Positions 62,107 through 64,000 of a stretch of DNA of 64,000 bases are shown one piece after another. Below the pieces are notes generated by a model. It saw only the letters and a list, made by a program, of their open reading frames with translations, ran no database searches and was not told the DNA's origin. The stretch lies in NCBI GenBank assembly GCA_000004985.1, contig GG738862.1; one strand, given 5' to 3'. The position numbers were made by a program, and so were the translations under genes. Within the stretch, counting starts at the first letter, position 1, and every line of letters begins with the position of its first letter. The stretch comes from Naegleria gruberi. Lineage: Eukaryota.

Positions 62107-62162
62107 ACAAGCAAAACAGTTCCCTTACCCGTTCAAAATATGTACCTTAGTAAACGCTCAAT

Positions 62163-62253
62163 GGTGAGATGGTCGAGTGGTCTAAGACGACACGTTAAGG
62201 TATGATTAATACCGTGTTCCGCAAGGGCGTGGGTTCAAATCCCACTCTCATCA
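62163..62253 (+). tRNA. tRNA-Leu (anticodon AAG), class II, with about 11-nt intron after position 37
   Basis: GGTGAGA TG GTC GAGTGGTCTAA GAC G ACACG TTAAGG [TATGATTAATA] C CGTGT TCCGCAAGGGC GTGGG TTCAAAT CCCAC TCTCATC A. Intron at about 62201-62211. Confidence 0.65.
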
Positions 62254-62328
62254 AGTTTTGCCTTATTTTAATTTGTACTACCAATTGTAAAAACAATTTT
62301 CACATATTGAATTTCAATATTGAAGGCT

Positions 62329-63261
62329 TTATTTCAAAATTGTATCTCGAAGTTTCTTAATGGAGTCATCAAGTTGAGTAGAAGATTTTACTGAAGATTT
62401 AATCAAAATCATCAAAGTATCAATAGTAGCCCTAAGAGCAACCCATTTGTTCTCTGCAGAAACAGAAGCACTGGATGTTGCCAAAAATTTGCATTGAGCA
62501 ATAATATCAGAAAGACATTTGGCTGTTTCACTAACTCTAGCTGCCACATGATTAGTTCCATTCTGAAGATTGTTAATTTTGGATAAGGTTGAACCAGATG
62601 GAACAATAGTTCCAATTCCAACACCAGTTGCTGCAATTCCACCTCCAATCAACACAGGTGCTAATGCAGGTGCAATAAAACACGAGATTACTCCTGCTAT
62701 TATTGCAGCTACACCACCTACTACTAGAACACACCCAGTAATTATGCCAACAATTGTCCAAGCACGAGCTTTACCAAATTTCTCTTTTGGTATTTCGTTA
62801 TCTATCTGTTGGGCAATGTCAACACATTCACTGCCCATTGTTCCTAAATCATCCTTGTACTTTTCAAAACTTTTAGCCATTTCATTAAAAGTTGTTTCGT
62901 GTGAAGCGATTTTGTTTGTGAATAATAATGCAGTTTCGTCTGTTTTCGCAAGAACTCTAAAATATTCTAATTCTTTTTTCATCAAATTCAATGTTGTTCG
63001 GAATGTGGTATTCAAATTAGTCAATTTCATACATTCTTCATAGAGTTTGACCTTTAACGATTTATATCTCTCTTTAAGTGTTGGAGAAAATTCTGAAATG
63101 TGTTTGTTAGCTTCCTTTACAAAAATACTCAAGGCATTACATTGTTCACCATATTCCAAGAAGGTTTTCTTTAAATCAACTTGTTTAAAGGATGTTGAGA
63201 GAAAATTGCATCCATCAAGGATGGTCTGGATCATGACAGGGTATGCAAGTGTTTGCCCCAT
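62329..63261 (-). CDS. N-myristoylation-motif (MGQT) coiled-coil protein with Gly/Ala-rich double TM hairpin, unknown function
   Basis: 310-aa ORF. Hydrophobic block WTIVGIITGCVLVVGGVAAIIAGVISCFIAPALAPVLIGGGIAATGVGIG. Confidence 0.45.
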   Translation of the reverse strand: MGQTLAYPVMIQTILDGCNFLSTSFKQVDLKKTFLEYGEQCNALSIFVKEANKHISEFSPTLKERYKSLKVKLYEECMKLTNLNTTFRTTLNLMKKELEYFRVLAKTDETALLFTNKIASHETTFNEMAKSFEKYKDDLGTMGSECVDIAQQIDNEIPKEKFGKARAWTIVGIITGCVLVVGGVAAIIAGVISCFIAPALAPVLIGGGIAATGVGIGTIVPSGSTLSKINNLQNGTNHVAARVSETAKCLSDIIAQCKFLATSSASVSAENKWVALRATIDTLMILIKSSVKSSTQLDDSIKKLRDTILK

Positions 63262-63480
63262 ATTGTGTGTGTAATTCTATTTTTTAGACTGGTCTTGCCC
63301 AGCTTCATGCTGATTGTGAGTTTTCTCTCAACATCCTTTAAACAAGTGCTTTCCAATTTTCATGGCATCAACTATCAGTATAAATTTAAGCTTCAAAGCA
63401 CCAGAAGCGTCATTCTATTGAATTATTGGGAATTAAATTTTCGAATTGGAATGTGACTTGTAGTTACAATGGTATTTTGG

Positions 63481-63505
63481 TACAGTCACGTCTCGAATAA
63501 TGCGG
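63481..63505 (+). repeat. left terminal inverted repeat of MITE
   Basis: 25/25 match to the reverse complement of 63975-63999. Confidence 0.75.
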
Positions 63506-63974
63506 TTTTTATTAATTCGGAGGTCGATTTTCAAAAAAAAATTGCAACAACAAAAATAATTCGGAGTGTTATTCTTCAGCATGCTTCTTCTAAAGCACTT
63601 CATCATCTTCACTACCGTCCTTTGCAAGGCCTAATCCTGTTTGAACCCACTCACAATTGTTCTATCTTCTACTGAAGTTAATGCCATTGATGTCCAGTTA
63701 ATTAGTTGCTGTGTTGAGACTTTTGGGAATGTGTTTACCTTCTTCTTATTGTTGATGATAATTTCTGCTTGCTCATCATACCATTCGGCTTGCAAATCTC
63801 TTAGCTTACATTGGAAGGATCTGTTGAATGACAAGTCACATTTACATTAGCTGCATTCTTTGGGCATCTTTATGGCTGTCAAGATTATCAAAAGTTAGGA
63901 TTTATGCATAAAACATATCAATTCATTACAAAATGGATGCAAATAATTCGGAGTGTTTTAAAAATCGACTGACT

Positions 63975-63999
63975 CCGCATTATTCGAGACGTGACTGTA
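63975..63999 (-). repeat. right terminal inverted repeat of MITE
   Basis: 25/25 match to the reverse complement of 63481-63505. Confidence 0.75.
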
Positions 64000-64000
64000 A

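What the first reader, a model, noticed from the sequence alone, without database searches (positions are those of the whole stretch)
63481..63999. Small TIR element (MITE) inserted about 220 bp upstream of a gene start, ending at the window boundary
There are perfect 25-bp terminal inverted repeats, TACAGTCACGTCTCGAATAATGCGG and its reverse complement. Both ends sit on TA, and the element proper begins with CAGT, which is typical of Tc1/mariner-superfamily ends. The interior is AT-rich and non-coding, with subterminal direct repeats (AATAATTCGGAGTGTT at two places). No transposase ORF is present, so it is a non-autonomous element that needs a trans-acting transposase somewhere else in the genome. 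It lies in the promoter region of the minus-strand gene at 62329..63261. I do not recognise this TIR as a described element.
Basis: seen in the sequence. Interest (0 to 1): 0.6.

Follow-up and report, generated by a model that had tools for sequence, protein, structure and literature searches.

The report
Gutted pogo-type transposon in Naegleria
The 519-bp inverted-repeat element is real: it is an ordinary non-autonomous DNA transposon of the pogo (Tc1/mariner-type) kind in the amoeba Naegleria gruberi, which has lost two-thirds of its transposase gene but kept both ends and all its likely transposase-binding motifs.

Summary
There are perfect 25-nt terminal inverted repeats at 63481-63505 and 63975-63999, none are expected by chance, TA sits at both ends, and no intact ORF is present. 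The window is Naegleria gruberi.

The interior is not non-coding filler. On the minus strand, 63569-63936 is a decayed copy of the last ~145 codons of a pogo-type (Pfam DDE_1) transposase. It carries three stops, a 4-nt frameshift and a ~57-nt deletion. An ~885-bp deletion removed the 5' UTR and codons 1 to ~270.

Full-length 1.46-1.48-kb relatives were found in Naegleria lovaniensis and in four contigs of unknown organisms. They encode 409-420-aa transposases and have near-identical termini (TA|CAGT..CTCGA.TA...CGGAG). They also carry the same five copies of an inner-TIR motif at the same positions. All are flanked by TA.

So this is an internally deleted, non-autonomous pogo-superfamily element with a TA duplication. 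"MITE" in the strict high-copy sense, and a trans-acting partner in this genome, remain untested because no N. gruberi genome could be searched. No annotated N. gruberi homologue exists. It is a new member of a known kind, of low interest.

The parts
63481..63482 (.). TA dinucleotide, one copy of the target-site duplication (3' side in transposase orientation)
   Evidence: TA flanks both ends here and in five related elements, and the flanks beyond TA are unrelated.
63483..63505 (-). 3' terminal inverted repeat (23 nt without TA). It contains the innermost copy of the repeated motif (ACCGCATTATTCG on the minus strand).
   Evidence: perfect, 0 expected by chance; it aligns with the 3' termini of L001, L003 and L005.
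63510..63523 (-). 3' subterminal motif copy 2 (CCTCCGAATTAATA on the minus strand), 42 nt from the 3' end
   Evidence: A CTCCG motif lies 42-43 nt from the 3' end in all four elements compared.
63553..63568 (-). 3' subterminal motif copy 1 (CACTCCGAATTATTTT on the minus strand), directly after the remnant's stop codon.
   Evidence: The same motif follows the stop codon in L001, L003 and L005.
63569..63936 (-). Transposase pseudogene remnant, equivalent to residues ~270-413 of the 413-aa relative P0003, including the original TAA stop (63569-63571). It keeps the LTFDNLDSH (63872-63898) and CDLSFNRSF (63814-63840) motifs, which hold the 2nd and 3rd catalytic Asp, and GLGLAKDG (63614-63637). Three in-frame stops lie within 63894-63907, 63835-63858 and 63584-63598. 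A 4-nt deletion lies within 63629-63648 and a ~57-nt deletion within 63858-63877.
   Evidence: E 8e-20 and 3e-18; DDE_1; tblastn; DNA alignment; coordinates.
63937..63940 (.). Approximate junction of the large (~885-bp) internal deletion, which removed the 5' UTR and codons 1 to ~270 (HTH DNA-binding domains and first catalytic Asp)
   Evidence: the alignment with the 1478/1479-bp full-length elements L001 and L003 resumes here.
63940..63955 (-). 5' subterminal motif (CACTCCGAATTATTTG on the minus strand), an inverted copy of the inner half of the 5' TIR, 19 nt inside it.
   Evidence: CTCCG lies at position 47-49 from the 5' end in all four elements.
63973..63997 (-). 5' terminal inverted repeat (CAGTCACGTCTCGAATAATGCGG) plus the conserved AG that completes CGGAG
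63998..63999 (.). TA dinucleotide, the second copy of the target-site duplication

Best explanation
The feature at 63481-63999 is a 519-bp (515 bp without the two TAs) non-autonomous, internally deleted copy of a pogo-superfamily (IS630/Tc1/mariner group) cut-and-paste DNA transposon of Naegleria gruberi. It is inserted at a TA dinucleotide 219 nt upstream of the orphan gene NAEGRDRAFT_57776. Its transposase sense strand is the minus strand.

Shown: it keeps both 23-nt TIRs and all five copies of a ~12-16-nt motif that repeats the inner half of the TIR. Two copies form a palindromic pair at the 5' end and three are direct copies at the 3' end. It also keeps the last ~145 codons of the transposase gene in decayed form. 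It has lost the 5' UTR, the DNA-binding domains and the first catalytic aspartate, so it cannot make a transposase.

Inferred: a full-length element would be about 1.46-1.48 kb and encode a transposase of about 410-420 aa with a CENP-B-like HTH and a DDE_1 (DDD) domain. That enzyme would bind the inner-TIR and subterminal motifs, pair the ends, cut at the CAGT termini and insert at TA, duplicating it. The 519-bp copy could move only if such an enzyme were supplied in trans. Whether a source still exists in N. gruberi, and whether this copy was ever mobilised after the deletion, is unknown. Any effect on the neighbouring gene is unknown.
For: Perfect TIRs, not expected by chance.

The organism is N. 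gruberi: the adjacent ORF is 100% identical to NAEGRDRAFT_57776.

An exhaustive phmmer search of the 71-aa open stretch (63634-63846, minus strand) finds two proteins, at E 8e-20 and E 3e-18. The second match covers residues 323-390 of the 413-aa protein P0003. P0003 matches Pfam DDE_1 at E 2.5e-17, above the cut-off, plus a weak HTH_Tnp_Tc5 hit.

P0003 lies inside a 1478-bp TA-flanked element whose TIRs are TACAGTCCCGTCTCGAATACAACGGA. Relative P0004 lies in 1479-bp elements on three contigs from three datasets, with at least two different flanks. Relative P0005, from N. lovaniensis, lies in a 1459-bp element with a perfect 23-nt TIR. All are flanked by TA only.

The window element is collinear with these elements at the 5' TIR and motif, then from codon ~270 to the stop, then the 3' motifs and TIR.

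The five motif copies sit at conserved positions: 23 and 47-49 from the 5' end, and ~86-96, 42-43 and 26-27 from the 3' end. Their sequence co-varies with each element's own TIR.

The Asp spacing in the relatives is 34 or 37, inside the DD29-56D range given for pogo. TA duplications and TIRs of 40 bp or less are the pogo norm (PMC7386202).

In the pogo-like Lemi1/Emigrant pair the transposase binds the TIR plus subterminal copies of the TIR's inner half. These are in direct orientation at one end, and reversed and about 22 bp away at the other (PMC1636448). That is the same layout as here.
Against: No other copy and no full-length partner from N. gruberi itself could be examined. The N. gruberi assembly is not in any searchable collection. 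The exact TIR is absent from JGI metagenome contigs and IMG/VR. No annotated N. gruberi protein is homologous.

Only one base (A at 64000) is visible beyond the right-hand TA, so in this copy alone a longer duplication cannot be formally excluded.

The closest relatives are only ~70% identical in DNA and 46-63% in protein over the remnant. They are therefore family relatives, not the master copy.

The organism behind four of the five related loci is unknown.
Confidence: 0.92

Rival explanations
1. A classical MITE: one member of an amplified, homogeneous, high-copy family in N. gruberi that is still mobilised in trans by an active pogo-like transposase elsewhere in the genome.
For: Small size, perfect TIRs, TA flanks and all five putative binding motifs retained. 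The codon-position pattern of the remnant against its relatives is 0.25/0.15-0.23/0.44-0.47, the same as between intact relatives. Little neutral decay has therefore accrued since inactivation, which suggests the event is not ancient. Related full-length elements look intact and recently mobile in other hosts: the identical P0004 protein sits at different sites in three datasets.
Against: Only one copy lies in this 64 kb. No N. gruberi transposase homologue is annotated. Naegleria genomes are reported to be TE-poor: 0.28% TE in N. gruberi in a 2026 preprint and 5.1% total repeats (PMC6125883). The interior is a transposase fragment with further small deletions, typical of one-off deletion derivatives. 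Copy number could not be measured.
Confidence: 0.3
2. A solitary dead relic. A full-length copy inserted here, then suffered the deletions and point mutations in place. It has never moved since, and the family is extinct in N. gruberi.
For: Several independent lesions are present: ~885-bp, ~57-bp and 4-nt deletions and three stops. There is no annotated homologue in the N. gruberi proteome. The genome is TE-poor.
Against: The two 25-nt ends are still 100% identical, and every motif copy is intact at its conserved position. The relatives' own TIRs carry 1-3 mismatches. This argument is weak, however, because post-inactivation divergence appears small.
Confidence: 0.55
3. A chance hairpin, or an element of another superfamily (hAT, PIF/Harbinger, piggyBac, P) whose TIR merely begins with TACAG.
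For: Only one base beyond the right end is visible in the window, so a longer duplication cannot be read directly for this copy.
Against: Zero matches are expected by chance. The interior is homologous to a DDE_1 transposase. Five related elements end at exactly the same nucleotides, and they have TA but no 3-, 4- or 8-bp duplication.
Confidence: 0.01
4. An exapted cis-regulatory or RNA-producing element serving the neighbouring gene, for example a hairpin RNA source or a promoter module.
For: It lies 219 nt upstream of a gene in the same orientation. As a single strand the whole element folds through its TIRs (z -3.7).
Against: The fold is just the TIR stem. No Rfam family matches. No conservation or expression data are available. 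Position alone is expected in a gene-dense genome.
Confidence: 0.04

Closest known systems
Lemi1 (pogo-like transposon) and its MITE Emigrant in Arabidopsis thaliana (PMC1636448)
   Same: Both are pogo-type elements with a short non-autonomous partner. In both, subterminal motifs repeat the inner half of the TIR. The motifs are direct and close to the TIR at one end, and reversed and about 20 bp away at the other. For Lemi1 these motifs were shown to bind the transposase cooperatively. The window element has the same layout.
   Different: Emigrant is a multi-copy family, whereas copy number here is unknown. Here the interior still carries the 3' third of the transposase gene. The host is a heterolobosean amoeba. 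No binding data exist for the Naegleria motifs.
The 1459-bp element of Naegleria lovaniensis that encodes 'hypothetical protein C9374_006533' (P0005; locus L005 4747-6205)
   Same: Same genus and same family. It has TA|CAGT termini, a CTCGA.TA...CGGAG inner TIR, the five-motif layout, and a DDE_1 plus HTH_Tnp_Tc5 transposase.
   Different: It is full length with an intact 420-aa ORF and a perfect 23-nt TIR. It is only about 68% identical in DNA and 40% in protein (longest tblastn segment) over the part shared with the window remnant. It is annotated as a host gene, not as a transposon.
Drosophila pogo with its internally deleted copies, and human Tigger with its derived MER elements (own knowledge; general pogo features from PMC7386202 and PMC7325037)
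   Same: TA duplication, TIRs of 40 bp or less that start with CAG, a DDD transposase with a CENP-B-like N-terminus, and families made mostly of internal-deletion derivatives that keep both ends.
   Different: The transposase here is small (409-420 aa), the TIR sequence is unrelated, and the host lineage differs. Placement among the pogo clades (Tigger, pogoR, Lemi, Mover, Passer, Fot-like) was not determined.
Cirt2 of Candida albicans (PMC12047244)
   Same: A Tc1-mariner/pogo element in a compact microbial eukaryote genome, with TA duplication and low copy number.
   Different: Cirt2 is 1822 bp with 46-bp TIRs and an intact transposase. There is no sequence relation. My initial guess that the window was a Candida-type yeast was wrong.

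Membership tests
pogo superfamily (IS630-Tc1-mariner group) | 2-bp TA target-site duplication | tested here: met
   TA lies at both ends of the window element and of five related elements. Flanks beyond TA differ, so a 3-, 4- or 8-bp duplication is excluded for the family. PMC7386202 gives TA as the classical duplication.
pogo superfamily (IS630-Tc1-mariner group) | Short terminal inverted repeats (type 1, 40 bp or less) | tested here: met
   A 23-nt perfect TIR (25 nt with TA). The relatives have 23-27 nt.
pogo superfamily (IS630-Tc1-mariner group) | Transposase with a DDE_1-type catalytic domain and a DDD triad, with 29-56 residues between the last two Asp | tested here: met
   The remnant is homologous to residues ~270-413 of P0003. 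P0003 scores 63.5 bits for DDE_1 against a cut-off of 22. The candidate Asp spacing is 34 or 37. In the window copy only the second and third Asp motifs survive. The catalytic residues were assigned from motifs, not from a structure.
pogo superfamily (IS630-Tc1-mariner group) | N-terminal CENP-B-like or Tc5-type helix-turn-helix DNA-binding domains | tested here: inconclusive
   P0003 scores 17.6 bits for HTH_Tnp_Tc5, below the 22.2 cut-off. PF03221 is precomputed for P0004 and P0005, marked weak. The family profile matches CENP-B chain 1HLV_A at E 0.026. UniRef names P0005 'HTH CENPB-type domain-containing'. This region is deleted in the window element.
MITE (strict sense) | Short (under ~800 bp), with TIRs and a target-site duplication, and no intact ORF | tested here: met
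   519 bp, with TIRs and TA, and no ORF longer than 69 aa.
MITE (strict sense) | Present as a high-copy, homogeneous family in the host genome | not testable with these tools
   The N. gruberi assembly is not in any searchable collection. There is one copy in the 64-kb window. No match was found in metagenome or viral contigs.
Internal-deletion derivative of an autonomous class II element | Both termini and the remaining interior are collinear with a full-length element, apart from deletions | tested here: met
   Alignment with L001 and L003, the tblastn map and motif positions.
Internal-deletion derivative of an autonomous class II element | The autonomous master is present in the same genome | not testable with these tools
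   No annotated N. gruberi homologue was found. Unannotated genomic copies could not be searched.
hAT / PIF-Harbinger / piggyBac | 8-bp, TWA or TTAA target-site duplication respectively, and the matching transposase fold | tested here: not met
   The flanks of six elements share only TA. The transposase remnant is of the DDE_1 type.
Fot/Fot-like clade of pogo (the clade PMC7386202 reports from one excavate species) | TIRs mostly 40-60 bp, duplications TAA, TAAA or TA, and phylogenetic placement | not tested
   TIRs here are 23-27 nt and the duplication is TA. No phylogeny was made. The held supplement of that paper is truncated and does not show Naegleria.

The most novel reading that the evidence does not exclude
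The element is the N. gruberi representative of a small pogo lineage that, as far as I could search, is undescribed, and that may still be active. The lineage was seen here in N. lovaniensis and in contigs of unknown organisms. Intact copies with perfect or near-perfect TIRs exist in N. lovaniensis and in the unidentified-organism contigs. The 519-bp copy, which keeps both TIRs and all five putative binding motifs, would then be a natural minimal cassette that a cognate 410-420-aa transposase could mobilise. That would be a starting point for a native transposon tool in Naegleria.
Probability: 0.15. Interest if true: 0.4.

Novelty: new member of a known kind. Interest (0 to 1): 0.2.

Why it matters
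Mostly it matters for annotation. It shows that a pogo-type DNA transposon family occurs in Naegleria, whose genomes are reported to be very TE-poor, and the repeat table of the N. lovaniensis genome paper that I read does not list the superfamily. It also shows that at least one 'hypothetical protein' of N. lovaniensis (C9374_006533) is a transposase inside a complete element. The conserved five-motif end architecture, which co-varies with each element's TIR, gives a concrete and testable prediction of the transposase binding sites. If an active partner exists, the 519-bp copy defines the minimal cis requirements. None of this changes how this class of element is understood.

Tried and rejected
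1. Yeast hypothesis. From GC content, gene density and an intron-containing tRNA I first suspected a CTG-clade yeast and the Candida Cirt elements. I rejected this when the adjacent ORF proved 100% identical to a Naegleria gruberi protein.

2. Pfam on the remnant translation gave no meaningful hit. The word-index protein search also found nothing. Only the exhaustive phmmer search found relatives.

3. Attempts to reach more N. gruberi DNA all failed. Exact-product look-ups of three window ORFs and of P0001 were not on record.

4. An exact TIR 20-mer in JGI metagenome contigs and an 18-mer in IMG/VR gave no match. The TIR string occurs in no held paper.

5. A family-profile scan of metagenome contigs gave one distant fragment, L006, at 41% identity, which I did not pursue. 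The same scan of viral contigs gave none.

6. The DNA for P0002 could not be fetched because the file was too large.

7. I considered arguing that three stop codons imply ~15% neutral decay, so that perfect TIRs would prove selection for mobility. I rejected this because the codon-position pattern shows most divergence accrued while the gene was still coding. TIR perfection is therefore only weak evidence.

8. Literature searches for described Naegleria Tc1/mariner or pogo elements or MITEs found nothing specific. The N. gruberi genome paper is not held. Repbase and Dfam cannot be consulted here, so prior description there cannot be excluded.

Full report
**Observation**

Reading 62200-64000 and a repeat search confirm a perfect 25-nt inverted repeat. 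TACAGTCACGTCTCGAATAATGCGG lies at 63481-63505 and its reverse complement at 63975-63999, 469 nt apart.

- The 23-mer without TA occurs exactly twice in the window, even with three mismatches allowed. Shuffles give 0.00 expected matches.
- Across all 64 kb only one other perfect inverted repeat of 18 nt or more exists.
- The reported direct repeat is present and is 17 nt long (AAATAATTCGGAGTGTT at 63554 and 63941), with a third partial copy at 63513.
- No ORF inside exceeds 69 aa.
- The element ends one base before the window end and lies 219 nt from the ATG (63261) of the minus-strand ORF 62329-63261.
- Its GC content (35.8%) is the same as the rest of the window, so it is not especially AT-rich.

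**Organism**

I first suspected a yeast and looked at the Candida Cirt elements. The adjacent ORF is, however, 100% identical to Naegleria gruberi NAEGRDRAFT_57776, on a 502,116-bp contig, and has no other homologue.

**What the interior is**

On the minus strand one frame has a 71-codon open stretch (63634-63846). From memory it looked like the C-terminal part of a pogo-type transposase.

- Pfam and the word-indexed protein search saw nothing.
- An exhaustive phmmer search of 1.84 billion representatives found two proteins: P0002 (90 aa, 63% identity, E 8e-20) and P0003 (413 aa, 59% identity, E 3e-18, residues 323-390).
- P0003 matches Pfam DDE_1 over residues 200-388 (E 2.5e-17, 63.5 bits against a cut-off of 22). 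It also has a sub-threshold HTH_Tnp_Tc5 hit.
- tblastn and DNA alignment show that the remnant covers the equivalent of residues ~270-413, down to the original TAA stop at 63569-63571. It runs in three different frames.
- It keeps the LTFDNLDSH and CDLSFNRSF motifs, which hold the second and third catalytic Asp candidates, and GLGLAKDG.
- It contains three in-frame stops, a 4-nt deletion and a ~57-nt deletion.
- Everything from just after the 5' subterminal motif to codon ~270 is missing. That is about 885 bp, comprising the 5' UTR, the HTH domains and the first Asp.
- No other trace of this transposase lies in the window.

**Full-length relatives**

- P0003 is encoded on a 1727-bp contig (L001; GCA_050043615.1, organism unknown). 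It sits inside a 1478-bp element bounded by TACAGTCCCGTCTCGAATACAACGGA and a near-perfect inverted copy.
- A further search gave P0004 (409 aa, 63% identical to P0003). It lies on three contigs from three datasets (L002-L004).
- The same search gave P0005 (420 aa), annotated as 'hypothetical protein C9374_006533' of Naegleria lovaniensis (L005).
- P0004 sits in a 1479-bp element. P0005 sits in a 1459-bp element with a perfect 23-nt TIR, TACAGTAGTTCCTCGATTAGAGC.
- All six elements, including the window's, begin with TA|CAGT and share an inner CTCGA.TA...CGGAG pattern (CTTGA in the P0004 element).
- All are flanked by TA on both sides, with otherwise unrelated flanks. The duplication is therefore exactly TA.
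- L003 and L004, and L002 and L004, have different flanks, so the P0004 element occupies at least two sites.

**End architecture**

A motif made of CTCCG plus 7-10 nt that repeats the inner half of the element's own TIR occurs five times. The positions are conserved among the window element, L001, L003 and L005:

- CGGAG at position 23, in and next to the 5' TIR.
- An inverted copy at positions 47-49.
- A copy directly after the stop codon, 86-96 nt from the 3' end.
- A copy 42-43 nt from the 3' end.
- The 3' TIR copy, 26-27 nt from the 3' end.

The variable part of the motif co-varies with each element's TIR: AATTATT here, TTGTATT in L001 and L003, and mostly CTCTAAT/CTCTATT in L005.

This layout is direct copies near one TIR and a reversed copy about 20 bp from the other. 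It was described for the pogo-like Lemi1/Emigrant pair, where the transposase was shown to bind the TIR and these subterminal motifs cooperatively (PMC1636448). That the Naegleria motifs are binding sites is an inference from this analogy and from the co-variation.

**Classification**

TA duplication, TIRs of 40 bp or less, a DDE_1 domain and a DDD spacing of 34 or 37 all fit the pogo superfamily as defined in PMC7386202 (DD29-56D). The CENP-B-like N-terminus is only weakly supported:

- P0003's HTH_Tnp_Tc5 hit is below the Pfam cut-off.
- The precomputed PF03221 hits for P0004 and P0005 are marked weak.
- The family profile matches CENP-B chain 1HLV_A only at E 0.026.
- UniRef names P0005 an 'HTH CENPB-type domain-containing' protein.

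Other superfamilies are excluded by the flanks and by the transposase type. I did not place the family among the pogo clades.

**How it works**

Shown: the copy has intact ends and cis motifs but no transposase.

Inferred: like other pogo and Tc1/mariner elements it moves by cut-and-paste, inserting at TA, and this copy could move only with transposase supplied in trans.

Whether it ever did is open. The codon-position difference pattern between the remnant and its relatives is 0.25/0.15-0.23/0.44-0.47, the same as between intact relatives (0.23-0.30/0.13-0.17/0.43-0.53). Most divergence therefore arose while the gene was functional in the N. gruberi lineage, and post-inactivation decay is modest. 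This also means the perfect TIRs are only weak evidence for continued selection on mobility.

No N. gruberi homologue is annotated, although the N. gruberi proteome is in the database searched. Naegleria genomes are reported as TE-poor. I therefore give a solitary relic somewhat better odds than an amplified MITE family, but a BLAST of the assembly is needed to decide.

**Known or new**

The kind is entirely familiar. I found no paper describing this family or its TIR. PMC7386202 reports pogo (Fot-like) elements from one unnamed excavate species. Repbase and Dfam could not be consulted. I rate the element a new member of a known kind, with low interest.

**Side observations**

- A second perfect inverted repeat (27 nt; 63179-63205 and 63321-63347) brackets the start codon of the neighbouring orphan gene. 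On the mRNA-sense strand it folds into a 27-bp stem.
- An intron-containing tRNA lies just downstream of that gene.
- The N. lovaniensis relative is annotated as a host gene.

Noticed in passing
window 63179-63205 and 63321-63347: A 27-nt perfect inverted repeat, the only other perfect long inverted repeat in the window. One arm lies inside the CDS of NAEGRDRAFT_57776 (codons ~19-28, FLSTSFKQV). The other lies 60-86 nt upstream of its ATG. On the mRNA-sense strand it forms a 27-bp stem whose 115-nt loop contains the start codon (-67.4 kcal/mol, z -5.6). No target-site duplication is seen at its outer edges. It could be a small inverted duplication or a translational control hairpin.
   Followed up: partly
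window 62329-63261 (-): The neighbouring gene (NAEGRDRAFT_57776, 310 aa) is an orphan: it has no homologue other than itself among 5.8 billion proteins. It has no Pfam domain above cut-off. It has a Gly/Ala/Ile-rich, probably membrane-spanning, central stretch.
   Followed up: partly
window 62162-62254 (+): A tRNA gene with an insertion of about 20 nt, presumably an intron. ARAGORN could not name the anticodon, and Rfam tRNA scores 48.3 bits. It lies 75 nt from the stop codon of the neighbouring gene.
   Followed up: no
L005 4747-6205 (Naegleria lovaniensis PYSW02000027.1, within 11 kb of the contig end): 'Hypothetical protein C9374_006533' is the transposase of a complete 1459-bp pogo-like element with perfect 23-nt TIRs and TA flanks. 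It is thus a transposon annotated as a host gene.
   Followed up: yes
L002, L003, L004 (ENA ERZ27315067, Logan SRR636569, JGI 3300002220): The identical 409-aa transposase P0004 sits in a 1479-bp element in three independent datasets, with at least two different insertion flanks. This suggests a recently mobile element in an unidentified organism.
   Followed up: partly
L001 1-245: The P0003 element is inserted at the end of a Gln-rich open reading frame that runs into the element. The gene caller extended a 144-aa product across the TIR. The organism of GCA_050043615.1 is not identified.
   Followed up: no
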